The notes beneath the pieces are model-generated. The model was not told the origin of the DNA. It did no database searches and saw nothing but the letters and a program-made list of their open reading frames with translations. Below are positions 25,386 through 62,192 of a stretch of DNA of 64,000 bases, piece by piece. Each line of letters starts with the position of its first letter. Positions within the stretch are counted from its first letter, which is position 1. This DNA is from Candidatus Daviesbacteria bacterium RIFCSPLOWO2_01_FULL_39_23 (GTDB lineage Bacteria; Patescibacteriota; Microgenomatia; Daviesbacterales; UBA10151), in assembly GCA_001776935.1 (NCBI GenBank), contig MFDN01000015.1, positions 30,130-94,129 on the forward strand. The letters run 5' to 3'. The position numbers and the translations under genes were made by a program.

Positions 25386-26081
25386 ATGCAAAAGGGTACT
25401 GCCGCTCTTTTTATTGTGGTTATTATTTTATTAATTGTTGTCTTAGGTTCTGCTTTGTTTTTTGGCTTATCTAAAATAAAGATTGACCCCCCTTCTGAGG
25501 AAAAAATTTTAGCAAACTTACCGCTTCCGGCTCCCAAGCTTAACCCCTCGTCTTCGCCGCAAATTTATCAAAACCAAAAATTAGGAATTAAATTTGAATA
25601 CTTTCTCAAGGATTATCTGGTTAGAGAAGATTCAGAAGAGGATTTTAATAAGCGGTCTGCCGGCGCAGCGCGCAACACATCCAGTGGGGATTATCGCAAA
25701 AACTTTAAAGGATATGTAGGGTATGAACCCCCGGGTTTTTTGGGAGGAGTAGTGTTGCTGGATAAGAATAATTCTTACGATATAAGTCCGCTGACAGTTT
25801 GGATTTTTGGCAATCCTGATAATTGGACCATTGATAAATGGTTTGGCAGCTTTTGGTATTATCCTTTTGTGTGGGGTGTGTTTGACTGGACATCAAAGGG
25901 TCATATTACACCGGATACGGAGGCGACAATCAGTGGTCAGTTGGCCAAATCTAAAATTGTTTCCTATCAGCCGGGAAAGCCAAAATTTGTATATGTTGCA
26001 AAAGGACAAAAGATGTATCTATTCAGGATAGTTGGCGAAGATGGGGATAAAATCCTTACCAATTTTAAGTTTTTGGACTAA
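25386..26081 (+). CDS. Secreted hypothetical protein; member of the local paralogous family ending in ...ILTNFKFLD
   Basis: Signal anchor; C-terminal motif shared with the proteins at 38781-39860 and 61578-62192. Confidence 0.5.
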   Translation: MQKGTAALFIVVIILLIVVLGSALFFGLSKIKIDPPSEEKILANLPLPAPKLNPSSSPQIYQNQKLGIKFEYFLKDYLVREDSEEDFNKRSAGAARNTSSGDYRKNFKGYVGYEPPGFLGGVVLLDKNNSYDISPLTVWIFGNPDNWTIDKWFGSFWYYPFVWGVFDWTSKGHITPDTEATISGQLAKSKIVSYQPGKPKFVYVAKGQKMYLFRIVGEDGDKILTNFKFLD

Positions 26082-26148
26082 TCAATAATGTAGATATCTG
26101 TGAATTTAGCTCGCCATCACTTCAGCAAGTTCAGTGTTTTCGGGCACG

Positions 26149-26847
26149 CTAATCCATTAAATATATATCAATGAAGCGCGCCCTCCAACCGGCAGTACGG
26201 GCATCTTCAAACCCCAAATCAATAATGTTGCCCTTTATGGCTCCGCCGGTATCGCCTGCAATGGCCATTCCATACCCCGGTATATAAACTTTACTTCTCA
26301 TCTTAATAACTTTCGGGTCAACGGCAATTACGCCTTTGCCGGCTTTCATTCCAATGGCTGTCCATTCATCGCAACCTTTACACCTTGAATCATAGTGGGT
26401 GGCATAAACTCTCATCTTTTTCCAATATTTAATTTCTCCATCTTGAACTTGCAGGGTTTTCCAGATAATTTTGGTACCCCGTAAAATTTTTTTATCTTTT
26501 GCGGGAATTGTTTCTAAGGAGACAAGTTTTCTTTCAAACTCTTTCCCGTCTTTTGAGTAGGTGACTTTAAATATTTTTGTTTTCTTGCCGTCTTCGCCTT
26601 CTTCTAAGATTTTTTCTTCTCCGGCTTCGGTTTGGGGATCATCCTCAAAAATGACTTTTTTTAAAATAATCTCAGTTTCCTCATGTAGTTTTTCCGTAAA
26701 AGAAGAATGGGTTGTAATTGGTTGATTCATTGGCAGAGTCTGAGTAAGAGAAGGAGAAGTTTCCCCGAGTACAGCAGGAGTCTGCCAGAAGGTTTTGGCA
26801 AAAACTGTAAGAGCTATTATTAAAAGGGCTCCTAAATATCTTTCCAT
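26149..26847 (-). CDS. Secreted G5-domain plus 3D-domain protein (YabE/MltA-C-like cell-wall binding/lytic protein)
   Basis: G5-like segment (EEGEDGKKTKIFKVTYSKDGKEFERK) and a C-terminal 3D domain with conserved Asp residues (VIAVDPKVI...GDTGGAIKGNIID). Confidence 0.7.
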   Translation of the reverse strand: MERYLGALLIIALTVFAKTFWQTPAVLGETSPSLTQTLPMNQPITTHSSFTEKLHEETEIILKKVIFEDDPQTEAGEEKILEEGEDGKKTKIFKVTYSKDGKEFERKLVSLETIPAKDKKILRGTKIIWKTLQVQDGEIKYWKKMRVYATHYDSRCKGCDEWTAIGMKAGKGVIAVDPKVIKMRSKVYIPGYGMAIAGDTGGAIKGNIIDLGFEDARTAGWRARFIDIYLMD

Positions 26848-29808
26848 TTAAGCATTTAACCAGTCATCATCATCTTTCGATATTTTATCAAGGTTTTCTT
26901 CGTCGCTGTAGCTGGCATTACTGATAATCAGTTCTTGTGGAATATCTGCCAAAAATCTGGATACTAAATTATTTGACCTGGTGCCAAAATATAACCTCTG
27001 TCTGGCGTAAGTTAAATATAGTTTCTCTTTAGCGCGGGTGATTCCGACATAGCAAAGTCTTCTTTCTTCCTCGAGTTCGCCAGTATCCAACATAGCGCGG
27101 GAGTGGGGGAATAAGCCTTCTTCCATGCCTACCATAAAAACAATCGGGAATTCCAGACCCTTAGCAGAGTGAAGAGTCATTAAAGTGACTGCGTCAGATT
27201 GCTGTTGACTGTTGGCTTTTCGCTTTCGGCCGGGAATATTGCCATTTTCAACCAGAGCAACATTTTCTAAAAATTCCACCAAATCAGGAAATTCTTCGGC
27301 TACAGACCGGAGCTCCTTAACGTTTTCTATACGCATTTTACCCTCTTCGGTGCCGTTATCAAGATATGCCAAATATCCTGTTTTGGTAAAAATTAAATCC
27401 AGTAAATCTAATGTTGTGTATTGATGAAGCTGCGTGGATATTTCTTCATAAAGTTCGGTAACTTTTACAAGCCTTCCTTTGCCTATTTTTTCAGCCCTTT
27501 TTAATGAAATCGAATCCTTAGGATTTTGCAATAAGCGCAGATATGCTAAAACGTCCTTTATTTCCTTTCTCTGGTAAAAGCTTACTCCGCCGACCAATTT
27601 ATATGGCATTCCGGCCTTTAAAAATTGTTCTTCTAGGGATCTTGATTGAGCATTGGTCCGGTAGAGAATGGCAAACTCAGACAGTTCTTTTATATCTTTG
27701 AGTTTGCTAATGGAGGATATGATAAAAAGAGCTTCTTCAACTTCATTTCTCACCTCAACTATTTCTATCTTTTCTCCGCCCTCTTTTTTGGTCCAAAGTT
27801 TTAAGACAGGATGGGATTTATTTTTGCAAATAATCGCATGGGCAGCGTCCAAAATATTTTGAGTGGAACGGTAATTTTGTTCAAGATTAAAAACCTTTAC
27901 CTGCGGATAATCTTTTTGAAAATTGACTATATTTCTAAAATCAGCTCCCCTGAAGGAATATATGGAATTATGTACAATGATTCCATTAGCAGAATAATTA
28001 TGCAGAGTATCTATATCCAGATCATAAACTTTTCCAACATAGTCCTCATGAGAAACTGAAATAACCTCATCAAGAATGATTCGATCTTTTTCTAAAATTC
28101 CAATTTCCATAGTTTCTCTAAGATGACTAATAGGGGTAAATAAAAACTTTTTATTATCAACAATGAAAGCAGAATGGTTAATAGTGAGTCCGCCGCCATC
28201 CAAAGCAATCTTTTCTGCTAGAGATAAAGCATTTTCATAACCCCAATGACAGGTTTCAATTCTCCATGTATCTCTATTGCCCGCTCTGGTAAAATGCCCC
28301 AGTTCATGAAGACTCTTCTGCAAGTTCTGGTTGGAAGTGTTAATTGAGACTCTGTGGCCACACCATGGACTTTTTAAAGTAGGCCGTTTATCGCTAAAAA
28401 GAGTGAAATGGACTAATTGTCTATCTGGAGCAATTTTACTTGCTACACCTTTAGGATGATGATGGGGATAGTCTTCAAACAGGTAGTAATCTTTGAAAAT
28501 TGTTTTTACCCGTTCTCTGGTATCTATAGAGTCAAAAAGTTTGTTAATTTGTTTTTGAGTAATAACCATATTACGGCCGCCGGTAGAGAAAACCATACTG
28601 GGGATTCCGTATTGAACTATAAACCACTGTTCCCAATAATTTGCTTCTGCTCTATCCTTGCAAACTTTTAAAATCCACATTTTATCTGCGCTCTCTTGAT
28701 TTGAACGCACCAATAAGCCAATTTGAGTTTTTCCTTTCTCTGGAGTTCTGAAACTTTTAGCAATTCCAATACGATAGCCTTTATCTTTTCGAAACATAAG
28801 GTATACATAGTAGCAATTTATTTTTAAGCTTAAACGGGCAAAGGTAATATGATTTGGGGTTGCTTTTAAAGTTTTACCGGATTTAGTTTTAATTGTGAAT
28901 AATTTACCTTGGAAATTAGAAATTCTTATTTTTTCAATCGGAACTTTGTGAATTCCTCCGCGACCAGCAGCAGCTATTACCAAATCGTTTCGTTTGAGGT
29001 CCTTAATAGATTTTAATCCAGTTGGAGTTGAAATTTTGGTATCAGGAGGGAGACATTGGCTGGCATCCCCTACAACACAAATATTTTGATGGCGTTTGGA
29101 TAAATATTTACTTATTAAATATTGGGCCGGATTGGTATCCTGGTATTCATCAATTAATATGTAGCGGAACTGGATCTGGTAGCGGGTTAAAACAGAGGGT
29201 TCGGTTTGAAAAAGCCGGATGGTTTTAAGAAGAAGGTCATCAAAATCCAAAGCCTGATTTTTCTCCAGGATTTTTTGATACTCAAGATAAATTTTAGCAA
29301 CAATTTCCTGGAAATATCCGCGGGCGTATTGAGGATATTCCAAAGAAGAAATCAGTTCGTTTTTAGCGCCGGAAATGGTGGAGCGGACAGAGTAGGGGGA
29401 AGTTTTTTGGGGGGAAATATTTAGATTACTCATGGCCTCTTTTACAGCATCCAAAGCATCTCCTTCATCATAAATTGCAAAACCGGGCGGCAGTCCCAGG
29501 ACTTTGCCGTCGCGGCGCAGTACCCTGGCACAAAAGCTATGGAACGTTCCCATAACCGGTTTGGCATTAAAATCCCCAAGCAGTTTCTTGATTCTTTCCA
29601 TCATTTCTCCGGCGGCTTTATTGGTGAATGTCAGGCACAGGATATTGTCAGGCGGAATACTCTTTTCAGATATTAAGTGAGCTACTTTATAAGTCAAGAC
29701 TCGTGTTTTGCCTGAGCCTGCTCCGGCCATAATCAGGGTTGGACCTTCAGTGGTCTGCACGGCTTTTTGTTGGTCTGGATTTAAATCATCTAGTAAAGAA
29801 GAGGGCAT
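26848..29808 (-). CDS. pcrA: UvrD/PcrA-family ATP-dependent DNA helicase interrupted by an intein
   Basis: Walker A AGAGSGKT. Motif III VGDxxQ is split from SIYSFRGA by a 363-aa insertion starting with Cys and ending ...VHN|S. Helicase motifs V/VI are present in the C-terminal extein. Confidence 0.85.
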   Translation of the reverse strand: MPSSLLDDLNPDQQKAVQTTEGPTLIMAGAGSGKTRVLTYKVAHLISEKSIPPDNILCLTFTNKAAGEMMERIKKLLGDFNAKPVMGTFHSFCARVLRRDGKVLGLPPGFAIYDEGDALDAVKEAMSNLNISPQKTSPYSVRSTISGAKNELISSLEYPQYARGYFQEIVAKIYLEYQKILEKNQALDFDDLLLKTIRLFQTEPSVLTRYQIQFRYILIDEYQDTNPAQYLISKYLSKRHQNICVVGDASQCLPPDTKISTPTGLKSIKDLKRNDLVIAAAGRGGIHKVPIEKIRISNFQGKLFTIKTKSGKTLKATPNHITFARLSLKINCYYVYLMFRKDKGYRIGIAKSFRTPEKGKTQIGLLVRSNQESADKMWILKVCKDRAEANYWEQWFIVQYGIPSMVFSTGGRNMVITQKQINKLFDSIDTRERVKTIFKDYYLFEDYPHHHPKGVASKIAPDRQLVHFTLFSDKRPTLKSPWCGHRVSINTSNQNLQKSLHELGHFTRAGNRDTWRIETCHWGYENALSLAEKIALDGGGLTINHSAFIVDNKKFLFTPISHLRETMEIGILEKDRIILDEVISVSHEDYVGKVYDLDIDTLHNYSANGIIVHNSIYSFRGADFRNIVNFQKDYPQVKVFNLEQNYRSTQNILDAAHAIICKNKSHPVLKLWTKKEGGEKIEIVEVRNEVEEALFIISSISKLKDIKELSEFAILYRTNAQSRSLEEQFLKAGMPYKLVGGVSFYQRKEIKDVLAYLRLLQNPKDSISLKRAEKIGKGRLVKVTELYEEISTQLHQYTTLDLLDLIFTKTGYLAYLDNGTEEGKMRIENVKELRSVAEEFPDLVEFLENVALVENGNIPGRKRKANSQQQSDAVTLMTLHSAKGLEFPIVFMVGMEEGLFPHSRAMLDTGELEEERRLCYVGITRAKEKLYLTYARQRLYFGTRSNNLVSRFLADIPQELIISNASYSDEENLDKISKDDDDWLNA
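27967..29055 (-). mobile_element. Intein (363 aa) inserted in helicase motif III of UvrD/PcrA
   Basis: N-terminal splicing block CLPPDTKISTP, C-terminal block ...GIIVHN followed by +1 Ser. The central region is large enough for an endonuclease domain, but no LAGLIDADG motif is seen. Confidence 0.75.
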
Positions 29809-29837
29809 AGCGTGGGATATATTAGCATATTTTTCCT

Positions 29838-30542
29838 TTAGATTATGAATTGGCTGATGGAGGTTTCAAGGTTTTGTTTATCGATGCGCTTTTTGAGTTT
29901 TTTTAACCGGTTTGGATCCAGATTAAACTGTCGGGCAATGTTTTCAAGGCTTTCCTCCTTTTGCAGCAAAATTAAAACCTGATCCATTTTTGTCCAGTAA
30001 TCGTATTCTTCCGGTACTATTTCCTGTAAGCCTAGAAATTTTGCCAGATCAAAAACTTCTGATTTAAAAAGCGAATAAAAAGGCACCAAATGTCCATAAA
30101 ACCCCTCCGGCGGAGGGTTTAAGAGTCTGTCGCTTTTATCAATAGTATTCACTAAGTCTGCTTTCATTTGGTCTGATTGTATTAACAGGTGATAATTTTT
30201 GAAGCGCAGATAAAAATTTTTCAAAGCTTCCGGTCCGCGCAACCGGTAGGCAGCCAGCTCTTTTTGATAAGCAGCAGCCCGGTTAAGGATAAAGGGATTA
30301 AGATTTAAGGTTTTGCAAACCCTGGTCAGCGCATTTGTTTTAGGACTGCCAAAATCCAAAACTATCAATATGGTTTTTTCGCCCAAAGCCTTTTGAAAAA
30401 GCACTCCCGCCGCAAGCGAGGTGATTGCACTGTTTATCTCTACGACTACCTTTGATGATTTCTTACAGGAAGACCGGATGTAGTAAATCAGTTTGTTTAC
30501 CAGCTGCTCATCAATAACTTTTTTGTCATCAGGCAGGTTCAT
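29838..30542 (-). CDS. NadE-like (NAD synthetase / PP-loop ATP pyrophosphatase fold) protein with a degenerate PP-loop
   Basis: Overall NadE-like collinearity (…GFYGHLVPFYSLFKSEVFDLAKFLGL…), but the SGGxDS motif is replaced by INSAITS. Confidence 0.45.
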   Translation of the reverse strand: MNLPDDKKVIDEQLVNKLIYYIRSSCKKSSKVVVEINSAITSLAAGVLFQKALGEKTILIVLDFGSPKTNALTRVCKTLNLNPFILNRAAAYQKELAAYRLRGPEALKNFYLRFKNYHLLIQSDQMKADLVNTIDKSDRLLNPPPEGFYGHLVPFYSLFKSEVFDLAKFLGLQEIVPEEYDYWTKMDQVLILLQKEESLENIARQFNLDPNRLKKLKKRIDKQNLETSISQFII

Positions 30543-30562
30543 AAATATAGTATACTCAAATT

Positions 30563-31465: not shown

Positions 31466-31506
31466 TCCTTGGAGAGCTTGACAAAATAAAGCAGAGGTGC
31501 TAAATT

Positions 31507-32361: not shown

Positions 32362-32425
32362 ATACCCTTTTTACAATTTTAAAAAGCATCTTGATTTCGG
32401 GTAATATTTGGAGTAATGTAAATTA

Positions 32426-33271: not shown

Positions 33272-33295
33272 AAGTCTTGTTATTATTTTCTTCCT

Positions 33296-33550: not shown

Positions 33551-33564
33551 TAAACAATTTTCAA

Positions 33565-34534: not shown

Positions 34535-34542
34535 GTGAAAAT

Positions 34543-35778: not shown

Positions 35779-36397
35779 AGAAGCTTCAAGAAAAAAGCTA
35801 TTAGAAATAAAAGAGAAATTTACCCAAAATAATGTGGTCGTTTTCGAGGAGGGTACTGATTTACAAGTCATTTTAGGTGGTGTGGCTACTCAGTCGCTGT
35901 TTTCTGATGAACGACTTATTGTTTTGGAGAATCCCCACGAGGATGTTATTTTAAACTTATCGCTTATCGCTTATTGCTTATCGCTTGCAATATGGTTTGA
36001 TCATGAGGTGAATGTAAAGAAGTTCCCTGGTTTTGAAGTGATGTTTTTCCCGGAAGGCAAAGAGGTTTCAATCTTCCCCTTTTTAGATTTATTGGCAGCC
36101 AAAGACAAAAAAGCCTTTTTAGAACTTCAGAAACTAAAAGACGGAGGATTTGATATTTACTATTTTTTGACCATGACCTTTTATCTTCTAAGAAATTTGG
36201 TGGCTACTCCCAAAAGAGCTCCTGACTTTGTCCGCACTAAACTACAAAGACAAAGAAAAAACTTTACCGAAGCTAAAATAACACAACTTTATAAAGATCT
36301 TCTGGAAATTGACTTTAAAATCAAATCCGGTTTGATGGAAATTCCTCAGGCAGAATTTTTATTAATTAATAGATTCCTTGAGCACCCAATTCTTTAA
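35747..36397 (+). CDS. Hypothetical protein, possibly DNA polymerase III delta-subunit-like (HolA N-terminal-like); contains a 7-bp x4 tandem repeat
   Basis: LLHGPAKEASRKKLLEI... weakly resembles clamp-loader delta N-termini. Overlaps the LCP gene by 32 bp. Confidence 0.35.
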   Translation: MKPLLLHGPAKEASRKKLLEIKEKFTQNNVVVFEEGTDLQVILGGVATQSLFSDERLIVLENPHEDVILNLSLIAYCLSLAIWFDHEVNVKKFPGFEVMFFPEGKEVSIFPFLDLLAAKDKKAFLELQKLKDGGFDIYYFLTMTFYLLRNLVATPKRAPDFVRTKLQRQRKNFTEAKITQLYKDLLEIDFKIKSGLMEIPQAEFLLINRFLEHPIL

Positions 36398-37346
36398 GCT
36401 TTTTGGCCATCAGATCCAAATCTTTTTGATCGATTGTATTGTCGCCGTTTAAATCAGCTTTTTTATCTTTAGAGCTTTTAGTTTGGCCAATGTTTTGTAA
36501 GACGATCGCGTTGTCAGCCGCATTTATTTTTCCATCGCTGTTTAAATCATAATTGTTCAAATCTTTAGTTGTGGGGCTGGGTTGAGGAATTGTGTTATCA
36601 GGAGGTGCTGAAGCAGTCAGATCTATTTGTTGTCCCAATTTTATAGGCGGCAGAAGCTCGGAGGATGATTTCAGTTTAAAAAGGACGATTGCTTCTCCTT
36701 TATCTGATTGAATAGTTATTTTACCGGTGAGATCATCTTCTAACGGATACACACCTGAAAGATCGTCTTTTCCTACTTGTGAAAGCGGGATTAAGAAATT
36801 CCCTCCTTTTTTGATTAGGGAAGATTGTGTGACAGCTCCTCCGACAGAAAGATATGCGATGCCTTCGTCTAGGGGAATTTCACCATAAAGCACAGACCCG
36901 ATAACGGGTGTGAATCTTGTTTGGATTGTCAGAGGTTGGGAAGTTTCAAAATTTAAAGTTTCTGAAGCTAATTTGCCGGAAATAATTTTAAACTGGTAAC
37001 GTGTTTTAGGTAAAAGGTTTTTTAAGGTAACGTAGTGAATTGACCGGGGTTTTGGTCCAGCTGCGTTTGCGCTCAAATCCCTGTCGTCCAAAACTGTTTT
37101 TTCCCGGGGATCATTTTGTCCCCATGTGATAAAGGACGCAGCTGCAGAGTTTGTTTTCCAGGAAATCACCACGGAATCTTCGGTTATGTTTGTAAAAGTA
37201 ATATTTTGCGGTGTTAAATCAGGCGAAGCTTGAGAAAGAAATGTTTGTTCTTTTAAGACTAAATAAAGGCCCGCTATAATTCCTAAAAAAATTATGGAAA
37301 GACCCAAAAGAGTAGGGATTTTAAATTTGTCAATAAATTTCATCAT
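36366..37346 (-). CDS. Secreted fibronectin-III-like protein with C-terminal dockerin-type Ca-binding repeats
   Basis: Signal anchor, FN3-like segment (NITFTNITEDSVVISWKTNS), and two DxNxDGKINxxD dockerin-like repeats (DLNSDGKINAADNAIV; DLNGDNTIDQKDLDLM). Confidence 0.55.
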   Translation of the reverse strand: MMKFIDKFKIPTLLGLSIIFLGIIAGLYLVLKEQTFLSQASPDLTPQNITFTNITEDSVVISWKTNSAAASFITWGQNDPREKTVLDDRDLSANAAGPKPRSIHYVTLKNLLPKTRYQFKIISGKLASETLNFETSQPLTIQTRFTPVIGSVLYGEIPLDEGIAYLSVGGAVTQSSLIKKGGNFLIPLSQVGKDDLSGVYPLEDDLTGKITIQSDKGEAIVLFKLKSSSELLPPIKLGQQIDLTASAPPDNTIPQPSPTTKDLNNYDLNSDGKINAADNAIVLQNIGQTKSSKDKKADLNGDNTIDQKDLDLMAKKLKELGAQGIY

Positions 37347-37520: not shown

Positions 37521-38126
37521 TTATTTTAGATAGTAAGCTTTCCCTGATAAAGACATGATAAGTCCAGAGTCCTCGTTAGTCTTGGTTACAGAGAGGTTAT
37601 CGATAGAGACTAACCTACTACTTGTTTTAAGATCTTGCAAGAGAGCAACTAAGCTTTCGTATTTGCCTTCCAAGTTGAAGATAAAAGAGATCTCGGAAAC
37701 TTGTCCGATTTGACTGCTCAGCTTGGCGTTTATTGTAAGGGGCTGTATCTGTAATGCAGATATAGATGCCTCATGCAGTCGGGCAGCTTCTTCCAGGCTT
37801 TGGACTACAGATTTTAAGCTGATTGCATCAGGGATTGCCTGGGAAATTTTCTCTTTAATATTCTGATCTAAATTATCATAATTTCTCTGCCCTAAAGAAA
37901 GATTGTTTACTTTGTCAGTGACTTTTTGTAAAATTTCTTCTTCATCAGCCAGCTTTTTTTGCAATACTAAAATTGTTTCAACAGTGGGTCTGATTGCAAA
38001 AATAGTGAGTATGGATATTGTTAACAAAGTAAAGATTGTTGGACCGTAATTTTTAATGATAGGTAACTTAGAAATTGGTTTAATGTAGGTAAAATACCGG
38101 GAATAAAGAGTAGATTTATTTTTCAT
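37521..38126 (-). CDS. PilO-like type IV pilus assembly protein
   Basis: Short cytoplasmic N-terminus, one TM helix, coiled coil and a periplasmic domain; immediately follows the PilN-like gene. Confidence 0.45.
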   Translation of the reverse strand: MKNKSTLYSRYFTYIKPISKLPIIKNYGPTIFTLLTISILTIFAIRPTVETILVLQKKLADEEEILQKVTDKVNNLSLGQRNYDNLDQNIKEKISQAIPDAISLKSVVQSLEEAARLHEASISALQIQPLTINAKLSSQIGQVSEISFIFNLEGKYESLVALLQDLKTSSRLVSIDNLSVTKTNEDSGLIMSLSGKAYYLK

Positions 38127-38135: not shown

Positions 38136-38720
38136 TTAAAGACTTTTATTTCCTAAGTTTACCAATTTGGCAGTGGCATCCAAAGTGAATTTAATAACTC
38201 CCTGTTCAAGTCCTACGCTTCCAATATTCGCGCCTGTGAAAGTATTATCTGTCCTAAGGCCCCCGACAAAGCTTGCAAGATCGCTATTTATTTGGGTTTG
38301 TCCGGCAATATGAATCATAGCATTGCCTAGATCTTTTTCTATGCTTATGTTTGTTATTTTGACGCTGGCAGGAGTTTGGTCGGCGATTTTTTTTAAGAGA
38401 ATAGACCAATCAGGCGACCCATTTTTTATATTATTTATGGTTGATAACTTAAGCTGGGTTTGCCTTATCGCTATCTCGTAAGAGCTGAGACTTTCAATGT
38501 AGGGAATTTGTTGTTCTATTGCCTCTTTTTTGGAAGCTATATCTGCATCCAGTTTAAATCTGGCTCCAAATGCGATTAACACTAAGGCTTCTACAAAAAT
38601 AAAGATGAAACGGCCGGAAGAAAGCAGCCAGCGGAAAAGTTTGACCGGAATTTTTTCAGGATTACTTTGAGGCTTTAACAGATCCAGATTAATAGTTAGA
38701 CCGGGTTTACCTTTGGGCAT
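38136..38720 (-). CDS. PilN-like type IV pilus assembly protein
   Basis: INLDLLKP near the N-terminus (PilN INLLP-type motif), one TM helix, then a periplasmic coiled-coil region. Confidence 0.5.
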   Translation of the reverse strand: MPKGKPGLTINLDLLKPQSNPEKIPVKLFRWLLSSGRFIFIFVEALVLIAFGARFKLDADIASKKEAIEQQIPYIESLSSYEIAIRQTQLKLSTINNIKNGSPDWSILLKKIADQTPASVKITNISIEKDLGNAMIHIAGQTQINSDLASFVGGLRTDNTFTGANIGSVGLEQGVIKFTLDATAKLVNLGNKSL

Positions 38721-38780: not shown

Positions 38781-39860
38781 TTACTTAATAAACTTAAAAG
38801 TAGGAAGAATTTGAGTAAATATTTTTTGTCCTTCCTGAACTTTGGCAACAGGTGTCTTATCTGGAGTAGTGCCTGTTTGCAGCGATAGATGATAGATAAA
38901 TTGCTCGTCTTTAGAGAAAAATACTACCTCATTAATATTTTCACTACCGGCTCTGGGCAGAATTTGTCTGCCTTCCTGACCATTAATAGTTATTTTTTCA
39001 AGTACTGAAGACATATTTGTGTATTCATCTATAGTGTTATAAGACCCGCCTGTAAAAGGGTTCCAATTAGGACCACCGGTGGCGGTAAAGATAAATGTTT
39101 TATCGGGATTTTCAAACACTTCGGCAAAACCATCTGCAGGTGCACGCTCGCTTCTTCTTGTCCACTCGGAGGGAAGCTTGAAGCTGATATTTTCAACCTG
39201 ATGTGTTTTCCAGCTTGTTTCAGCTTGATCGGGGTCGCTGGTTGGACCTGAGGAAGCAGGAAGAAATTTGAATGTAGAGAGAATTTTTTCTCCTGTTGAA
39301 GATAAACCTGGTTCAAATACCAGTTTATAAATTTTCCCCTTATAAAGGGAAAGCAAAGTATAGCTTCCCCATGGGCCGCCGGTATTGCCCATTAAAGCCG
39401 GTTGCTGATCGATTATGGTATTTTTGATTTTTATCCCTGCTATATCTAAATTTCCTCCGCTGGTTAATTCTTTTTTTAAGTCGTTTAAGGTCAAAGTCTC
39501 TTTGTTATCTTTGACAGAAATGGTTAATTGGAAATTATCCATAGCTAAATCTTTGGCTTCTTGTTTATCTACAGCAACGGTAAATGAAGTTAACGAGCTG
39601 TCTTGTACTAAAACCCCGTCAACAGAGTATCTGCCGCCTTCTGTAATCTCCGCTTTTGGTGGATACTTAAGCGAATAACCAAGTGTAGTATTTGTATAAA
39701 TTTTCCACTCAAATGTTTCATCGGGCATTGAAGAAGGCGAGGGGGTGGGCTGAACAGGTTTGGTAGAAATTTGTTTACCCAAATAAAACGCTCCTGCTCC
39801 GACAATAATCAAAGCAACTATACCCAGAATCATAAATTGCCCAAAACCTTTTTGGTTCAT
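38781..39860 (-). CDS. Secreted two-domain protein of the local paralogous family (N-terminal MNQKGF signal anchor; two domains each ending in ILSTFKF)
   Basis: FEWKIYTNTTLGYSLKYP ... EKILSTFKFLP and SWKTHQVENISFKLP ... TQILPTFKFIK. Shares N-terminal, domain-start and domain-end motifs with the genes at 61578 and 25386. Confidence 0.55.
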   Translation of the reverse strand: MNQKGFGQFMILGIVALIIVGAGAFYLGKQISTKPVQPTPSPSSMPDETFEWKIYTNTTLGYSLKYPPKAEITEGGRYSVDGVLVQDSSLTSFTVAVDKQEAKDLAMDNFQLTISVKDNKETLTLNDLKKELTSGGNLDIAGIKIKNTIIDQQPALMGNTGGPWGSYTLLSLYKGKIYKLVFEPGLSSTGEKILSTFKFLPASSGPTSDPDQAETSWKTHQVENISFKLPSEWTRRSERAPADGFAEVFENPDKTFIFTATGGPNWNPFTGGSYNTIDEYTNMSSVLEKITINGQEGRQILPRAGSENINEVVFFSKDEQFIYHLSLQTGTTPDKTPVAKVQEGQKIFTQILPTFKFIK

Positions 39861-49327: not shown

Positions 49328-49330
49328 GTT

Positions 49331-53053: not shown

Positions 53054-53080
53054 AGGTGGGCTAGTCCCACCTTTTTTTAA
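53054..53080 (+). terminator. Rho-independent terminator after dnaJ
   Basis: aggtggg-ctagt-cccacct stem-loop followed by a T7 run. Confidence 0.6.
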
Positions 53081-53188
53081 GCTAAAGCTTAAAAATGATC
53101 AAGTACCAAATAACAAGATACAAACAAAATTTAAATTTGTTTGGAAACTTGTATTTTGAAATTTGATTATTACAACCGAAGGGAGTTT

Positions 53189-54481: not shown

Positions 54482-54566
54482 TATGTATTAAGTATTATGT
54501 ATTAAGGGTATGAAAACATTGAATTTATTATTTCCCATAATACTAACTGCTTGATACTTAATACTT
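54478..54566. repeat. Hairpin repeat family B copy (imperfect inverted repeat rich in gtattaagta / tattatggg)
   Basis: Left arm agtatgtattaagtattatgtattaaggg pairs with right arm cccataatactaactgcttgatacttaatac. Shares ttgatacttaatac with the copy at 63277-63354. Confidence 0.7.
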
Positions 54567-54597
54567 TCTCGGTATCGAAAGGAGAAAATAATTAAGT

Positions 54598-56046: not shown

Positions 56047-56143
56047 GCACACTTGATTTTTATAGACGTGGACTGTAATAGTCTACGCAAAGCCTTGACT
56101 ATTATGGGCTAGTGGTGGTAGAATTGGCCTGTTTCTAAAATAT

Positions 56144-57169: not shown

Positions 57170-57203
57170 CAAACGTCCTATAATATGTTAAAATCACAAA
57201 AAT

Positions 57204-57314
57204 ATGATTGATAGAGGTTTCGAGAAGGCACGACAACTGCCAGAAAATAATACTGCTGCCAGACAATTGGCGATCCAGGAAGCAAGAAGAAAGTTAGAAG
57301 AAGCAGGTGTGTAG
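57204..57314 (+). CDS. Small ORF (36 aa; MIDRGFEKARQLPENNTAARQLAIQEARRKLEEAGV), not in the supplied track
   Basis: Read from the sequence; charged helical peptide immediately upstream of the 57323 gene, in a GC-richer segment. Confidence 0.3.
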   Translation: MIDRGFEKARQLPENNTAARQLAIQEARRKLEEAGV

Positions 57315-57322
57315 ATCCTGAC

Positions 57323-57979
57323 TTGGAGGTTGGAATACAATTATCAACAGAGGAAGCTATAGAGTTTAAGGTTGCTCCAAAGGTAGATCGTCGCCAGCAA
57401 ACGTACGATCTTTTAAAACTTGTCCGAAAACCTTTAACCGAAGAAAAAGAGGTACTAAGGCGTAGTAGAGGGATAGTTTTTCTACCTGTGAACGAAAGAT
57501 CATACGCCCAGGTGGTGTCAGAGAATATAGGACATTTTCGTTCAGGCGAATTAGATTATGTCCTTGGGTATGTCGTTGGCAAGATTCAACTTATAAATTA
57601 CAAATTACCGGCAGCGATAGAAGTTGGCTTTAACCCAGAAGCTATGGTTTGGCACGGAGGAAATGGTTCACGAGCAGGTCAATTAGAAGTGATTGAAGAA
57701 TATTCCCAATCGTTACAACTTGAACTTCCTGATGCAAGAGCGATCATGCTTCCATCAACAGGATATGCGCAGGCAGATATAGCCTTTAAAAAAACAACTG
57801 GGAGAGTACTAATTGAACATTACTTTGCGAGGGCTCTAGATGATCTTTCTAATGTCCATTCTGCTAGTGTAGGTCGGTGTCATCGATCAGAGCGGTTTCA
57901 TGTCAGTGAGCTGAATGAGTGGGATCCTAGTATGTGGGTGAAAACTGTTCCCGCGGTAGTGTTTGTTAGAAATAAGTAA
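57323..57979 (+). CDS. Hypothetical protein (218 aa), GC-richer; inserted between infB/nrnA-like and rpsO
   Basis: Clean ORF with no recognisable motifs; it interrupts an otherwise conserved operon order. Confidence 0.5.
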   Translation: MEVGIQLSTEEAIEFKVAPKVDRRQQTYDLLKLVRKPLTEEKEVLRRSRGIVFLPVNERSYAQVVSENIGHFRSGELDYVLGYVVGKIQLINYKLPAAIEVGFNPEAMVWHGGNGSRAGQLEVIEEYSQSLQLELPDARAIMLPSTGYAQADIAFKKTTGRVLIEHYFARALDDLSNVHSASVGRCHRSERFHVSELNEWDPSMWVKTVPAVVFVRNK

Positions 57980-58100
57980 TTGGTCAATTGGATTTTTGCA
58001 TCTAGGATAACTCTTGTATATTTTTTCCTTCTTTGTTACAATACGCCCAAGTTAAAAAGAGCAACGTCTTGGCACCGAGGTTGTTTCAGAAAGGATTACG

Positions 58101-58370
58101 ATGCCACTTGATCCAAAGATTAAGCAGAAAATAATTCAAGAATTCGCAACAAAATCTGGTGATACCGGTTCCCCTGAAGTTCAGGTAGCGCTTTTAACAG
58201 AACAAATTAAAAATTTAACAGATCATTTAAAAGAGCATCCACACGATATTCACTCAAGGCGCGGGCTTTTATCCATGGTCAATAAAAGAAGAAGACTTCT
58301 TCAATACCTGTTTAAAAAAGATAATGAAAGATACGGTGTAGTTATTGAAAAATTAGGCCTTTCCAAGTAA
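58101..58370 (+). CDS. rpsO: 30S ribosomal protein S15
   Basis: ...[51 protein letters not shown] is the S15 signature. Confidence 0.9.
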
Positions 58371-58530
58371 TTGGACTTTAATTTGCAGATATAGTAAAAT
58401 GTATAAGTTGAGAGATTTGGGGATTGCAAAGAGTTGGGTAGCTGTTAGCCAAAAGCAAATAGCTAGTTGCCTCTTCCACAGTTTCCAAATCCTCGGAGTT
58501 AAGAATCTAAATATAGATTCAAATGATTAG

Positions 58531-60849
58531 ATGAATAAAGTAATAATAAAAGAAATTGACCTTAATGGTCGCAAGCTTAAACTCGAAACAGGTAAGTTGG
58601 CTTTACAGGCTGATGCATCTGTTGTTGTCTCATGGGGCGAAACAGTTATTTTGGCAACAGTGGCAACTCAACCTTTAACAGAAGATATCGGATATTTCCC
58701 TCTCTCGGTTGAATATGTAGAAAAGCACTATGCCGGAGGGAGAATCTCATCTTCCCGGTTTATTAAAAGAGAAACAAAACCTACTGACGAAGCAGTCTTA
58801 ACCGGCAGACTGATTGACCGCTCCATCCGCCCCCTTTTTCCAAAAGAGCTTAAAAATCATGAAGTGCAGGTCATTTTAACAGTGCTTTCGATTGACCAGG
58901 CTAATGATCCTGATGTTGTTGGTCTAATCGGAGCTTCAGCCGCCTTATCTATTTCGTCTATTCCGTGGAAAGGGCCGATTGCCTGCGTGAGAGTCGGGGA
59001 GCGGGACGGAAGCTTAATGGTGAATCCGTTAGTGAGCGAGATGGAACATCTTAATATGGATCTTCTGGTTGCCTCGACTAAAGAAAAAGTTGTGATGATT
59101 GAGACTGAAGGTAAAGAGATTGCGGAAGAAATTGTTTTTAATGGGATCAAAGAGGCGCACGCTCAGTCTCAGCAAATAATTGCATTAATAGAAGATTTTA
59201 CCAAAGAAACAGGTAAAGAAAAATTTGCTGTTTCTCATTTGGCAGAAGAAATAGAAGAAGCTTTAATTGCCGAAGTCACCAAGCTGACCAAAGACAGAAT
59301 TGAAAAAGCGCTTTTTGACAGCGAACATGCCTGGCATGAGGCAACCGGGGATCAAATTAAAAAAGAACTGGCCTTGCAGTATGCGGAAACTTTAACCCCT
59401 CAAATTATTTCCGGCATTTTTGACAAAGTAGCCAAAGAAATCCTCCATGAAACAGTTTTAGAAAAAGGCAAAAGAGTGGATGGCCGAGCTATGGATGAAA
59501 TAAGACCTATCGAAATGGAAGTGGGTATTTTGCCAAGAACTCACGGCAGCGCTCTTTTTCAAAGAGGAGATACTCAAGTATTATCGGTTGCCACCTTAGG
59601 TGCACCCTCGCTCAAGCAAACTCTGGACGGCATGGAAGGCGAGAGACAAAAGAGGTTTATGCATCATTATAATATGAGCATTAATCCTTTTTCTGTGGGT
59701 GAGGTAAAAAGATTAGGCGCCCCAAACAGGCGTGATGTTGGTCATGGAGCTTTGGCTGAAAAATCGCTTACAGCTGTTATACCTGCTGAAGACCAGTTTC
59801 CGTATGCTATAAGAATAGTGTCGGAAGTTTTGGCGGCAAATGCTTCCACTTCTATGGCTTCTGTTTGTGCGGCCACTTTGGCTCTTCTTAATGCCGGTGT
59901 CCCCCTGAAAGAACCGGTTGCCGGAATTGCTTTAGGGCTTTTTTCCAATGAAAAGAAATTTCAGGTGGTTACAGATATGCGGGCTGTTGAGGATTTTTAC
60001 GGCGAGATGGATTTTAAAGTTTCAGGAACTAAAAACGGCGTGACTGCTATACAAATGGATACCAAACTTGAGGGGCTCTCATTCGAAATTATTGAAACTG
60101 CCTTGAAAATGGGTAAGGATGCAAGGCTTGAGATTCTGGAAAAAATAAACAAAGCAGTACCTTCGGCAGGTCCTTTGTCCCCGCATGCCCCAAGAGTGGA
60201 AATGCTGCATATCAAGCCGGAAGAAATTGGGCTTTTGATCGGGCCGGGCGGCAAAAATATTAACGGCATTATTGCAAAAACAGGTGCGCAAATTGATATT
60301 GAAGACGACGGAACAGTGATGGTTTCCGGGACCAACTCCGAGGGTGTGGATGCAGCAATTGCAGCAGTTGAAGGAATGTTTAAAACAGTCAATGTTGGAG
60401 ATGAATTCACCGGCAAAGTTGTTCGCCTTGCTCCTTTTGGAGCGTTTGTGGAAATTGCGCCGGGCAAAGATGGACTGGTGCATATTTCTCAAATGGCTCC
60501 GGGACATGTGGAGAGGGCGGAAGATATTGTCAGCGAAGGACAGGAAGTAAAGGTTAGAGTAACTGATGTTACTCCTGAGGGAAAGGTCGGATTATCCATG
60601 CTTTTTGGAGCAGATATAAAACCTGAATCTGAAAGCAGACCCCGTTCTAGTGGCGGATTCAGACCAAGACCTTCTTTTGGAGACTCACCTCGCTTCTCGC
60701 CTCGCGGCGGAGCAGGCAGTCCAAGACCATCAAGCGGAGGTTACAGACCAGGTGGATTTAACAGAGGTGGTTCCAGAAGTTCCGGCGGATTTGACAGGGA
60801 TCGCGGCGGCGGAAGAGATCGGGGCGGCAGAGGCGGCTTTAACCGCTAA
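58531..60849 (+). CDS. pnp: Polynucleotide phosphorylase with KH, S1 and an RGG/Gly-Arg-rich C-terminal tail
   Basis: Two RNase PH domains, KH (GPGGKNI), S1, then GGFRPRP...RGGRGGFNR low-complexity tail. Confidence 0.9.
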   Translation: MNKVIIKEIDLNGRKLKLETGKLALQADASVVVSWGETVILATVATQPLTEDIGYFPLSVEYVEKHYAGGRISSSRFIKRETKPTDEAVLTGRLIDRSIRPLFPKELKNHEVQVILTVLSIDQANDPDVVGLIGASAALSISSIPWKGPIACVRVGERDGSLMVNPLVSEMEHLNMDLLVASTKEKVVMIETEGKEIAEEIVFNGIKEAHAQSQQIIALIEDFTKETGKEKFAVSHLAEEIEEALIAEVTKLTKDRIEKALFDSEHAWHEATGDQIKKELALQYAETLTPQIISGIFDKVAKEILHETVLEKGKRVDGRAMDEIRPIEMEVGILPRTHGSALFQRGDTQVLSVATLGAPSLKQTLDGMEGERQKRFMHHYNMSINPFSVGEVKRLGAPNRRDVGHGALAEKSLTAVIPAEDQFPYAIRIVSEVLAANASTSMASVCAATLALLNAGVPLKEPVAGIALGLFSNEKKFQVVTDMRAVEDFYGEMDFKVSGTKNGVTAIQMDTKLEGLSFEIIETALKMGKDARLEILEKINKAVPSAGPLSPHAPRVEMLHIKPEEIGLLIGPGGKNINGIIAKTGAQIDIEDDGTVMVSGTNSEGVDAAIAAVEGMFKTVNVGDEFTGKVVRLAPFGAFVEIAPGKDGLVHISQMAPGHVERAEDIVSEGQEVKVRVTDVTPEGKVGLSMLFGADIKPESESRPRSSGGFRPRPSFGDSPRFSPRGGAGSPRPSSGGYRPGGFNRGGSRSSGGFDRDRGGGRDRGGRGGFNR

Positions 60850-61017
60850 TTAATTTTTGCTTCTTCTTTATTAGGTAGTATAATTCTTATAATTGTTATT
60901 CTCATATAGCCTCAACTTAATCATTTCATGATGCGATCGCATATCATCATTATAAAGACAAAACTTGATACGATCGTGTACATTTTTGAGCAAGCTTGGT
61001 TATGCTATGATTAGGTT

Positions 61018-61572
61018 ATGCAAAAAGGGTTTATCAGCCAGCCGATAATTTTTGTTCTGCTTGGTATTTTGGTAATTTTACTGATTGCCGGCGGTGTTTA
61101 TTATTTTATCAGTTCATCTAAATTAAAGCCTCCCTCTTCTCAGGCTCCCCAAGCCTGTACTAATGAGGCTATGGTTTGTCCTGATGGATCAGCTGTAGGT
61201 AGAGTTGGTCCAAACTGTGAATTTGCCCCTTGCCCCGCAGGAAAGACAACAGACAAAATCATAACTCCTTCTAATCCTCCTGATTCCTCTAATCCTTCTA
61301 CAACTCAAGATTATCGGCTAGGTGGGTCGTTTACTGAAAAGGCAACTGAGAAAGAGATAGGATCAATAAGCAGCAGATTTGGATCTGATGTTTCTTCTGT
61401 ATCCTTACTGGAAAGTTTCCCCCTGCAGTTTCAAATCACCAGCCCTTCCCAAACCTCCTGTGAGAAAGTAAGAAAAGCCCTGGCTGGTTTAAAATTTATC
61501 CAAAGTGTTGGTGATTGCCAAAAGGTTGAATCAGGTAACTCTGATCCTAACCAATCCGTAATAAGCAATTAA
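61018..61572 (+). CDS. Secreted/membrane-anchored hypothetical protein (184 aa); N-terminus similar to the next gene
   Basis: MQKGF...LLGILVILLIAGGVYYF signal anchor, Cys-rich and Pro/Ser-rich regions. Confidence 0.5.
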   Translation: MQKGFISQPIIFVLLGILVILLIAGGVYYFISSSKLKPPSSQAPQACTNEAMVCPDGSAVGRVGPNCEFAPCPAGKTTDKIITPSNPPDSSNPSTTQDYRLGGSFTEKATEKEIGSISSRFGSDVSSVSLLESFPLQFQITSPSQTSCEKVRKALAGLKFIQSVGDCQKVESGNSDPNQSVISN

Positions 61573-61577
61573 CTTAA

Positions 61578-62192
61578 ATGAACCAAAAAGGTTTTGTGCT
61601 TTTATACATCCTAATAGGAATTTTGATTCTGATAGGAATAGCTGGTGGAGCATATTATTTATGGGCGCAAGAATACCGTCGAACGCATCCTATTGGTCCA
61701 CTACCAATAGTGGTACCTGAAAATATACCACTATCTAGGAATATTGATGAAACAGCCACCTGGAAAACATACACCAATACAGAATATGGCTTTTCAATCA
61801 AATATCCAGACTTTATTACATATAAAGAAAAACTCTTTAATGACGTGACTTTTTATTACAAAATTGATGATGAAGATATTCCGGAAAATAAATACGATTT
61901 TCCAAGCTATTTTACCAAAGGACTAGGGATTCTATTTAGAACAGGACCAGCTGAACAAGCAGCTAGTTCAGAATTACCAAACAGACCTCAGGAAAAAGTT
62001 CAAATTAACAATAGTGAGGGGGTAAGAATCAAAGATTCACTGTTTAATTATTATCTGTCTTCTAAGGGTAATGACAAATACTCTATAAGGTTAGTTTATC
62101 AAGGTCGTACTGTATACCAAACAAAAGATGAAATAGAAAAAAGATTACGTATTTATCAACAAATTCTTTCTACCTTTAAATTTCTTCCTTAA
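61578..62192 (+). CDS. Secreted protein of the local paralogous family (MNQKGF anchor; WKTYTNTEYGFSIKYP ... ILSTFKFLP)
   Basis: Shares N-terminal anchor, domain-start and C-terminal motifs with the genes at 38781-39860 and 25386-26081. Confidence 0.55.
   Translation: MNQKGFVLLYILIGILILIGIAGGAYYLWAQEYRRTHPIGPLPIVVPENIPLSRNIDETATWKTYTNTEYGFSIKYPDFITYKEKLFNDVTFYYKIDDEDIPENKYDFPSYFTKGLGILFRTGPAEQAASSELPNRPQEKVQINNSEGVRIKDSLFNYYLSSKGNDKYSIRLVYQGRTVYQTKDEIEKRLRIYQQILSTFKFLP

What the first reader, a model, noticed from the sequence alone, without database searches (positions are those of the whole stretch)
25386..62192. Paralogous secreted-protein family with conserved domain boundaries (WKxYTNxxxGFSxKYP ... 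ILSTFKF)
Three genes belong to one family: 25386-26081, 38781-39860 (two tandem domains) and 61578-62192. They share an N-terminal MNQKGF plus hydrophobic signal anchor, at least in two of the three. Each also has a domain of about 130-150 aa that starts with a W-K-x-Y-T-N...G-[FY]-S-[IL]-K-Y-P block and ends with a near-invariant (Q)ILSTFKF(L/I) C-terminus. The gene at 61018-61572 shares only the N-terminal anchor. One member lies directly upstream of PilN/PilO-like genes. This looks like a lineage-specific surface or secreted domain family. The invariant C-terminal motif could be a sorting or assembly signal. The N-terminus resembles, but does not match, class III (type IV pilin) signals: it lacks Glu at +5.
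Basis: seen in the sequence. Interest (0 to 1): 0.6.

Follow-up and report, generated by a model that had tools for sequence, protein, structure and literature searches.

The report
Membrane-anchored PsbP-like surface proteins in Daviesbacteria
The three genes are real paralogues, but they belong to an already catalogued and very large family of PsbP-like domains (Pfam PF18933) that ultra-small CPR bacteria tether to the outside of their membrane, and their conserved end motif is a structural element of the fold, not a sorting signal.

Summary
The ORFs at 25386-26081 (A), 38781-39860 on the minus strand (B, two domains) and 61578-62192 (C) are homologous. C vs B domain 1 gives BLASTP E=1e-15. 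A is linked only at profile level (hhalign 99.5%, E=2e-22). The window comes from a Candidatus Daviesbacteria genome (CPR/Patescibacteria).

The domain is not lineage-specific or new. B passes the Pfam PF18933 (PsbP_2) threshold, and 13 of 31 homologues match it. AlphaFold models of C and A hit PsbP/CyanoP structures first. A profile search finds 46,269 cluster representatives, with up to six tandem domains.

The WKxYTN…KYP block is the first beta-hairpin. ILSTFKF is the end of the last helix plus the last strand. 53% of its occurrences are internal, so it is not a C-terminal sorting signal.

The link to pilN/pilO is not conserved. A related genome has rpsT-pilN-pilO without B, and ten other contexts hold no pilus genes. 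A is a conserved orthologue, syntenic with FemAB, SurA-like and G5/3D envelope genes.

The M(N)QKG|F leader is a portable anchor, also found on LRR and Cys-rich proteins. It closely resembles type IVa prepilin leaders but lacks Glu5 and matches no class III model. Whether a prepilin peptidase cleaves it remains open.

The parts
61578..62192 (+). Gene C, 204 aa. M(N)QKG|F anchor at residues 1-29 (61578-61664), a proline-rich linker, then one PsbP-like domain at residues 57-204 (61746-62189).
   Evidence: ORF. AF2 model has pLDDT 70.7 with a TM helix at 5-35 followed by a beta-sheet with helices. Foldseek top hits are cyanobacterial PsbP 2xb3 and CyanoP 2lnj, probability 1.0. Pfam PsbP_2 scores only 14 bits, below threshold.
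38781..39860 (-). Gene B, 359 aa. MNQKGF anchor at residues 1-28 (39777-39860). PsbP-like domain 1 at residues 47-201 (39258-39722). PsbP-like domain 2 at residues 214-359 (38784-39221).
   Evidence: ORF. Pfam PF18933 scores 27.5 bits against a cutoff of 27. The family HMM matches two domains. BLASTP to C gives 1e-15 for domain 1 and 2e-4 for domain 2. hhalign of domain 2 to the family gives 96.8%. A promoter-like site lies at 39896-39868 on the minus strand, just upstream.
25386..26081 (+). Gene A, 231 aa. MQKG|T anchor at residues 1-28 (25386-25469), a linker, then a divergent but well conserved PsbP-like domain at residues 58-231 (25557-26078).
   Evidence: ORF. It has 294 homologues at 50-60% identity, mostly named Daviesbacteria, with many invariant residues. 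Profile-profile comparison to the C-type family gives 99.5%, E=2.4e-22. The AF2 model has pLDDT 80.6. Foldseek top hits are CyanoP and plant PsbP, followed by DcrB and LpqN.
61018..61572 (+). Gene D, 184 aa. MQKG|F anchor (61018-61107), a 4-Cys mini-module CTNEAMVCPDGSAVGRVGPNCEFAPC (61156-61236), then an unrelated C-terminal region. It ends 5 bp upstream of gene C.
   Evidence: ORF. The family HMM matches profile positions 2-50 only. No Pfam family matches. The Cys module recurs in family members P0024, P0029, P0041, P0044, P0058 and P0170.
38136..38720 (-). PilN-like gene. This is context only and not part of the family.
   Evidence: Pfam PilN, 31.4 bits. In the related genome L007 it follows rpsT directly, without gene B.
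37521..38126 (-). PilO / T2SS-M-like gene. This is context only.
   Evidence: Pfam T2SSM_b 32.7 bits and PilO 26.7 bits. NCBIfam GspM scores 35.5 bits, below cutoff.
23573..25391 (-). FemAB-like gene (23573-24655) and SurA-N-like chaperone gene (24672-25391; the likely true start is the internal ATG near 25328). They are transcribed divergently from gene A and form its conserved neighbourhood.
   Evidence: Pfam SurA_N_3. The same FemAB - SurA_N_3 <-> A -> G5/3D arrangement is seen in L008, L009 and L010.
26149..26847 (-). G5 + 3D domain cell-wall protein gene, convergent with gene A. It is part of A's conserved neighbourhood.
   Evidence: Pfam G5 and 3D. Synteny.

Best explanation
A, B and C encode extracytoplasmic proteins. 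Each carries one or two PsbP/Mog1-fold domains of the Pfam PsbP_2 (PF18933) family. This family is hugely expanded in CPR/Patescibacteria.

Architecture: each protein has a short basic leader ending in Gly, an uncharged helix of about 22 residues, and a disordered Pro/Ser/Thr-rich linker. Together these hold the globular domain outside the membrane.

The conserved 'boundaries': the WK.YTN..GFS.KYP block is the first beta-hairpin. (Q)ILSTFKF is the end of the C-terminal helix plus the final short strand. They are conserved because they are core elements of the fold. The poorly conserved middle forms the variable surface.

Function (inferred, not shown): by analogy with other extracytoplasmic members of the fold (CyanoP/PsbP, DcrB, LpqN), the domains act as non-enzymatic binding or assembly-adaptor modules at the cell envelope.
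- The A type is a conserved orthologue kept beside FemAB, a SurA-like chaperone and a G5/3D wall protein. It most likely serves envelope biogenesis.
- The B and C types are fast-diverging paralogues.

They are not pilins and not dedicated parts of the type IV pilus machine.
For: Sequence family:
- B reaches the PF18933 gathering score.
- 13 of 31 homologues match PF18933, the best at 8.8e-12.
- P0038 matches profile positions 5-184 of 184, anchor included.

Fold:
- AF2 models of C (pLDDT 70.7) and A (pLDDT 80.6) were built.
- Their best PDB matches are cyanobacterial and plant PsbP, CyanoP and PnsL. BT_1490, 3lyd, DcrB and LpqN follow.

One superfamily: hhalign of the A profile against the C profile gives 99.5%.

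Size and modularity:
- 46,269 representatives at E<=1e-3 and 21,530 at E<=1e-10, with 1 to 6 matched stretches per protein.
- The median distance from the start motif to the end motif is 146 aa.

Motif positions in the models: the first strands lie at 63-67 and 72-76, and the last helix at 183-198 with a strand at 201-202 in C. In A the last helix is 217-225 with a strand at 228-229.

Linker: it is disordered, with pLDDT below 50 at residues 43-54 of C and 34-48 of A.

Envelope context of A: the arrangement is conserved in three other genomes. The same slot holds a C-type gene in L011.

Other envelope or quality-control neighbours: LemA and Peptidase_M48.
Against: - Only B, marginally, passes the curated Pfam threshold. 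C scores 14 bits and A does not hit at all.
- Foldseek TM-scores are moderate (0.36-0.55), and the middle of the C model has low confidence.
- No solved structure is detectable by sequence.
- The function is inferred from fold analogy and gene neighbourhood only. No ligand, partner or expression data were available.
- Whether the N-terminal segment stays as an anchor or is cleaved was not tested. Cleavage could be by signal peptidase I near AGGA|YY or by a prepilin peptidase at G|F.
Confidence: 0.8

Rival explanations
1. The M(N)QKG|F N-terminus is a true class III (prepilin-type) signal. A PilD-like peptidase cleaves after the Gly. The proteins are then displayed or extracted by the type IV pilus machinery. 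This would resemble E5-less tip minor pilins, or the archaeal sugar-binding proteins that carry class III signals. B would be co-expressed with PilN/PilO.
For: - The leader is almost the same as type IVa major pilin leaders, for example A. baumannii PilA MNAQKG|FTLIEL (Table 1 of PMC6370729).
- The Gly-hydrophobic junction is kept while the leader length varies between 3-5 and 12 residues, as in MHFDYAQCKQKG|.
- About half of 178 family representatives have this junction.
- The same leader heads unrelated ectodomains: an LRR protein and Cys-rich proteins.
- E5-less pilin-like proteins exist, such as PilX and ComGF in the same table.
- Type IV pilus parts are enriched in CPR and PilD is widespread there (PMC6744442).
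- B lies 60 bp upstream of pilN, with no terminator-like site in the B-pilN gap.
Against: - +5 is M, Y, F or P, never Glu.
- No match to Pfam N_methyl or NCBIfam prepilin N-terminal models at E<=1.
- The other half of the family uses long Pro/Gln-rich N-terminal tails with no Gly junction. These members keep the same helix end (GG.YY.G[KR]), which argues for a plain membrane anchor.
- A disordered linker of 20-35 aa separates the helix from a non-pilin fold.
- B is missing from the rpsT-pilN-pilO locus of a related Daviesbacteria genome.
- No pilus gene lies near ten other family members.
Confidence: 0.25
2. The N-terminus is an ordinary Sec signal peptide cut by signal peptidase I at the conserved small-residue site (…G.AGGA|YY…). 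The PsbP-like domains would then be released as soluble secreted proteins rather than tethered.
For: The family consensus has small residues at -3 and -1 (G, A), preceded by a Gly and followed by YY, about 20 residues after the basic leader.
Against: - The uncharged stretch is about 20-22 residues, which is long for an h-region and typical for a membrane span.
- Paralogues with cytoplasmic N-terminal tails of 20-60 aa carry the same GG.YY.G[KR] helix end. These are unlikely to be cleavable signal peptides.
- The long Pro/Ser/Thr linker fits a tether.
- No signal-peptide predictor was available, so this was not tested directly.
Confidence: 0.2
3. ILSTFKF is a C-terminal sorting or assembly signal recognised by a dedicated export or attachment system.
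For: It is nearly invariant and lies at the extreme C-terminus of the single-domain proteins.
Against: - It closes every domain copy. 162 of 307 occurrences lie at least 20 aa from the C-terminus, including residue 193-199 of B.
- It is followed by Cys-rich extensions in P0015, P0028, P0212, P0250 and others.
- In the models it is the end of the last helix plus the last strand.
- No hydrophobic or basic tail follows it.
Confidence: 0.03
4. The shared motifs are chance or low-complexity coincidences, and the genes are unrelated.
For: A vs C and A vs B are not significant by pairwise BLASTP outside the anchor.
Against: - C vs B gives E=1e-15 over the full length.
- The profile-profile comparison gives 99.5%.
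- Both models have the same fold.
- Tens of thousands of homologues share the same architecture.
Confidence: 0.01

Closest known systems
Pfam PF18933 (PsbP_2, 'PsbP-like protein')
   Same: There is a direct sequence match. B passes the threshold. P0038, a homologue of C, matches profile positions 5-184 of 184. The profile has the same layout, with an N-terminal hydrophobic segment followed by the domain.
   Different: Most members here fall below the curated cutoff: C scores 14 bits and A has no hit. They remain annotated as hypothetical proteins. The A-type subfamily has its own strongly conserved motifs (NGDFRKNFKGYVGYEP, YWYYPFLWGVFD, SKGH) that the Pfam model does not describe.
PsbP / CyanoP (photosystem II extrinsic protein and its cyanobacterial homologue; PDB 1v2b, 2xb3, 2lnj)
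   Same: These are the best structural matches for both models (Foldseek probability 1.0, E 2.5e-4 to 1e-3). Both are extracytoplasmic or lumenal alpha/beta sandwiches that act by binding partners.
   Different: Sequence identity is 9-15%. There is no hit to the PsbP Pfam family proper. The organism is a CPR bacterium, a group not known to be photosynthetic (my own knowledge), and no photosystem gene appears in the window's ORF list. Here the domain is membrane-tethered and often tandemly repeated.
DcrB (PDB 6e8a) and LpqN (PDB 6e5d), envelope proteins of the same fold
   Same: They have the same fold at lower rank (probability 0.6-0.96). They are extracytoplasmic and membrane-attached, and the PDB title links LpqN to cell-envelope biogenesis. 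This matches the envelope-gene neighbourhood of A.
   Different: Those proteins are lipoproteins (my own knowledge). A, B and C have no Cys or lipobox in the N-terminal segment. They use a transmembrane-type anchor instead.
Type IV pilins / class III signal peptides (Pfam N_methyl, TIGR02532)
   Same: They share a short basic leader ending in QKG, followed by Phe and about 21 hydrophobic residues. Compare MNAQKG|FTLIEL of A. baumannii PilA (PMC6370729).
   Different: There is no Glu5 and no hit to the curated models. There is no pilin globular domain. A disordered linker and a PsbP fold take its place. Linkage to pilus genes is not conserved.

Membership tests
Pfam PF18933 PsbP_2 | Whole-protein score at or above the gathering threshold (27 bits) | tested here: inconclusive
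   B scores 27.5 bits and passes. C scores 14.0 bits and fails. A has no hit. Among 31 C-type homologues, 13 match at E<=0.01, the best at 45.8 bits over the whole profile.
Pfam PF18933 PsbP_2 / Mog1-PsbP fold superfamily | PsbP-like alpha/beta fold: an antiparallel sheet flanked by helices, with an N-terminal hairpin | tested here: met
   The AF2 models of C and A have PsbP, CyanoP and PnsL as top PDB hits, at probability 1.0 and E 2.5e-4 to 1e-3. The models are predictions of medium to good confidence.
Pfam PF18933 PsbP_2 / Mog1-PsbP fold superfamily | All window members are homologous to each other | tested here: met
   C vs B: BLASTP 1e-15. A profile vs C profile: hhalign 99.5%, E=2.4e-22. 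B domain 2 vs the family: 96.8%.
Type IV pilin / class III signal peptide | Short basic leader ending in Gly, followed by a hydrophobic +1 residue and about 20 hydrophobic residues | tested here: met
   The junctions are MNQKG|F in B and C, MQKG|F in D and MQKG|T in A.
Type IV pilin / class III signal peptide | Glu at +5 | tested here: not met
   +5 is M (B), Y (C), F (A) and P (D). The family consensus at +5 is L, F or Y.
Type IV pilin / class III signal peptide | Match to curated N-terminal cleavage/methylation models (PF07963, TIGR02532) | tested here: not met
   No such hit at E<=1 in Pfam or NCBIfam.
Type IV pilin / class III signal peptide | Cleavage by prepilin peptidase and incorporation into a filament | not testable with these tools
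   This needs N-terminal proteomics or co-expression with PilD.
Type IV pilus operon component | Conserved linkage to pil genes | tested here: not met
   B is absent between rpsT and pilN in the related genome L007. No pil genes were called within 5-8 kb of ten other family genes.
C-terminal sorting signals (sortase LPXTG type, PEP-CTERM type and similar) | Motif only at the extreme C-terminus, followed by a hydrophobic span and a basic tail | tested here: not met
   53% of motif occurrences are internal. Nothing, or a Cys-rich module, follows the motif.
Bacterial lipoproteins of the same fold (DcrB, LpqN) | Lipobox with an invariant Cys at the end of the signal peptide | tested here: not met
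   There is no Cys in the N-terminal 45 residues of A, B or C.

The most novel reading that the evidence does not exclude
The E5-less M(N)QKG|F leader may be a CPR-wide class III-like signal. A prepilin peptidase would process a large repertoire of non-pilin surface proteins carrying it (PsbP-like, LRR and Cys-rich proteins). The pilus machinery might then display them. This would be a bacterial counterpart of the archaeal proteins that use pilin-type signals for surface display. The expanded, variable PsbP/LpqN-like domains might then serve to bind host-derived molecules in these host-dependent cells.
Probability: 0.2. Interest if true: 0.7.

Novelty: new member of a known kind. Interest (0 to 1): 0.3.

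Why it matters
CPR bacteria have tiny genomes and depend on other cells, and their surface proteins are mostly unannotated. These 'hypothetical proteins' belong to one PsbP-like family with tens of thousands of sequence clusters. Knowing this gives them a fold and a likely location. It also explains the striking conserved end motifs, and it removes a tempting but unsupported link to pili and to sorting signals. The part still worth pursuing is the pilin-like leader shared by several unrelated surface proteins. It can be tested directly and could reveal how CPR cells handle their surface proteome.

Tried and rejected
- A homologue search with the anchor alone, meant to list every ectodomain that carries it, failed twice. 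The first query was too short. In its place I scanned the window and fetched loci with a regular expression.
- Profile searches of both families against PDB sequences gave nothing meaningful.
- No canonical pilin N-terminus (G[FY][ST]L[IV]E) occurs in the window or in the loci held at that point, L001-L013. The leader could therefore not be compared with this organism's own pilins.
- Literature searches for PF18933, and for PsbP with Patescibacteria, found no study of this family in CPR. Papers on CPR pilin signal peptides concern other gene arrays.
- Gene conversion as the cause of the conserved ends was rejected, because the shared motifs differ at synonymous sites.
- Chance similarity and a C-terminal sorting signal were rejected.
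Full report
**Source and genes.** The window has 39% G+C. Exact protein look-ups identify it as Candidatus Daviesbacteria (CPR/Patescibacteria) from Rifle groundwater, for example GCA_001776655.1 contig MFCQ01000019.1. All four proteins are annotated as hypothetical.
- A: 25386-26081, plus strand, 231 aa
- B: 38781-39860, minus strand, 359 aa
- C: 61578-62192, plus strand, 204 aa
- D: 61018-61572, plus strand, 184 aa

**Is the similarity real?** Yes.
- C aligns with the first half of B over its whole length (BLASTP E=1e-15, 30% identity) and with the second half at E=2e-4.
- A is not significantly similar to B or C by BLASTP outside the anchor.
- A's last 61 residues do align to a profile of C-type homologues (hhalign 97.3%).
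- A profile of A's own orthologues aligns with the C-type profile over 189 columns (99.5%, E=2.4e-22).
- A family HMM finds no further member among the window's genes. It matches D over the anchor only.
- The literal motifs are present in C and B domain 1. They are degenerate in B domain 2 (WKTHQVENISFKLP, QILPTFKFIK) and in A (IYQNQKLGIKFEY, KILTNFKFLD).
- Codons of the shared motifs differ at synonymous sites. Only 8 of 14 and 6 of 9 identical residues use the same codon. The motifs are kept by selection on the protein, not by recent gene conversion.

**What the domain is.**
- Pfam PF18933 (PsbP_2) matches B at 27.5 bits against a cutoff of 27, and C at 14 bits.
- Thirteen of 31 C-type homologues match PF18933 at E<=0.01.
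- P0038 matches profile positions 5-184 of 184 at 45.8 bits. P0020's second domain matches profile positions 39-183.
- AlphaFold models were built from homologue alignments. C gave pLDDT 70.7 and A gave pLDDT 80.6.
- Foldseek against the PDB puts cyanobacterial PsbP (2xb3), CyanoP (2lnj), plant PsbP (1v2b, 4rth) and the PsbP-like NDH subunit first, at probability 1.0 and E 2.5e-4 to 1e-3. BT_1490, 3lyd, DcrB (6e8a) and LpqN (6e5d) follow.
- TM-scores are moderate (0.36-0.55), and the central part of the C model is uncertain.
- Sequence and fold evidence agree, so the assignment to the PsbP/Mog1-type fold and to PsbP_2 is well supported.
- No solved structure is detectable by sequence.

**Size and shape of the family.**
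- A profile search of 1.84 billion cluster representatives finds 46,269 proteins at E<=1e-3 and 21,530 at E<=1e-10. Proteins carry one to six matched stretches.
- Named homologues come from Daviesbacteria, Giovannonibacteria, Pacebacteria and other Microgenomates.
- In 178 representatives the distance from the start motif to the end motif has a median of 146 aa.
- In the C-type alignment the anchor and the two end blocks are nearly invariant (W62, K63, P77, T199; I196-F202 at 90% or more). The middle barely aligns.
- The A type is the opposite. It has 294 homologues at 50-60% identity with many invariant residues: NGDFRKNFKGYVGYEP, YWYYPFLWGVFD, SKGH, EATISG, YQPGKPKF.

**The conserved 'boundaries'.** In the models the WK.YTN..GFS.KYP block forms the first two strands (63-67 and 72-76 in C). 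QILSTFKF is the end of the C-terminal helix (183-198) plus a short final strand (201-202). The equivalent elements in A are helix 217-225 and strand 228-229. The end motif closes every domain copy. Of 307 occurrences, 162 lie at least 20 aa from the protein's C-terminus. In B it sits at residues 193-199 and is followed by a second domain. In P0015, P0028, P0212, P0250 and others, Cys-rich modules follow it. It is therefore a fold element and not a C-terminal sorting signal.

**The link to pili.**
- PilN and PilO directly downstream of B are confirmed.
- A promoter-like site precedes B, and none of the terminator-like sites found lies in the B-pilN gap. Co-transcription is possible.
- In a related Daviesbacteria genome (L007, PilO 71% identical), the order is MurJ, rpsT, pilN, pilO, fn3/dockerin, with only 44 bp between rpsT and pilN and no B gene.
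- Ten other family genes examined have no pilus genes within 5-8 kb.
- The adjacency is therefore a local feature of this genome, not a property of the family.

**Context of A.** The arrangement FemAB, SurA-N-like chaperone, divergent A, convergent G5/3D wall protein, UvrD is the same in three other Daviesbacteria contigs. In a fourth contig (L011) the neighbours are 50-69% identical to the window's, apart from the partial G5/3D fragment at 86%. There the same slot holds a C-type gene that is 65% identical to C. This argues that the two types are functionally related and connected with envelope biogenesis. Elsewhere, family genes sit after LemA and before a Peptidase_M48 gene.

**The N-terminus.**
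- B and C start MNQKG|F, D starts MQKG|F and A starts MQKG|T. About 22 uncharged residues follow, ending GG.YY.G[KR].
- About half of 178 representatives have a Gly-hydrophobic junction at the start of the hydrophobic segment. This includes forms with a 12-residue leader (MHFDYAQCKQKG|) in both A-type and C-type proteins.
- The other half have long Pro/Gln-rich N-terminal tails without the Gly but with the same helix end.
- The same leader heads an LRR protein (L004 6264-7358), a Cys-rich protein (L009 6296-6802) and D. It is therefore a portable module.
- It is very close to type IVa prepilin leaders such as MNAQKG|FTLIEL of A. baumannii PilA (Table 1 of PMC6370729). That table also lists pilin-like proteins without Glu5 (PilX, ComGF).
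- Against a class III signal, Glu5 is absent and no Pfam N_methyl or NCBIfam prepilin model matches at E<=1. A disordered linker separates the helix from a non-pilin fold.
- From my own knowledge of the field, Gly(-1) is the main requirement for prepilin peptidase cleavage, and Glu5 is needed for assembly rather than cleavage. Processing therefore remains possible but unproven.
- Cleavage by signal peptidase I at AGGA|YY is another untested possibility.
- The paralogues with long cytoplasmic tails and the same helix end make an uncleaved type II anchor the simplest reading.

**Mechanism.**
- Shown: homology, domain architecture, the PsbP-type fold (predicted), family size, and lack of conserved pilus linkage.
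- Inferred: extracytoplasmic location tethered by the N-terminal helix and linker, and a binding or assembly-adaptor role. This rests on analogy with CyanoP, DcrB and LpqN, and on A's conserved envelope neighbourhood.
- Not shown: any ligand, partner, or processing event.

**Novelty.** These are new members of a known kind. The domain family is already in Pfam, although most members, including A and C, fall below its threshold and remain unannotated. I found no paper that discusses this family in CPR. The pilin-like, E5-less leader on several unrelated CPR surface proteins is the one aspect that could prove more interesting.

Noticed in passing
L011 4015-4641 (compare window 25386-26081 and 61578-62192): In a related Daviesbacteria contig, the conserved slot between the SurA-like gene and the G5/3D gene holds a C-type PsbP-like gene (65% identical to window gene C) instead of an A-type gene. 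A paralogue has been swapped in a conserved envelope-gene neighbourhood.
   Followed up: partly
window 61156-61236 (gene D residues 47-73): A 4-Cys mini-module, CT.[ED]AK.CPDGS.VGR.GPNCEF..C, has no Pfam match. It recurs between the anchor and the PsbP-like domain, or at the C-terminus, in six family members. Two other Cys-rich C-terminal add-ons (CP.NGWENCMP…NCPNF and GCSGQLC…) are shared between A-type and C-type proteins.
   Followed up: partly
homologues P0002, P0049, P0072, P0092, P0216, P0232, P0236, P0256, P0293, P0306: An alternative conserved 12-residue leader, M[HY]FDYAQ[CY]KQ[KR]G, precedes the hydrophobic segment in both A-type and C-type proteins. It has no internal Met, so it seems to be a real longer leader that ends at the same Gly.
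   Followed up: no
window 36366-37346 (-), and L007 6818-7750: A membrane-anchored fibronectin-III plus dockerin/EF-hand-like protein follows pilN-pilO in both Daviesbacteria genomes. Gene callers also place a 58-aa ORF between pilO and this gene. No pilM is adjacent, although PilN keeps an INL..L-type N-terminus.
   Followed up: no
window 26848-29808 (-): The UvrD/PcrA-type helicase gene (986 aa) carries an intein (precomputed Pfam Intein_splicing hit). Orthologues in L008-L010 are about 645-660 aa and lack it, and in L009 an intein sits in a thioredoxin gene instead.
   Followed up: no
L004 3601-6255 and L006 4304-6815: LemA genes lie directly upstream of PsbP-like family genes in two unrelated CPR contigs. 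In L006 the family gene is followed by a Peptidase_M48 (HtpX-like) gene. This hints at a link with membrane-protein quality control.
   Followed up: no
L004 2486-8930: A cluster of four consecutive or near-consecutive genes in a complete Daviesbacteria genome all begin with MNQKGF-type leaders (one with a longer leader ending …SKGF). It includes a leucine-rich-repeat protein, so the leader marks a local array of diverse surface proteins.
   Followed up: partly
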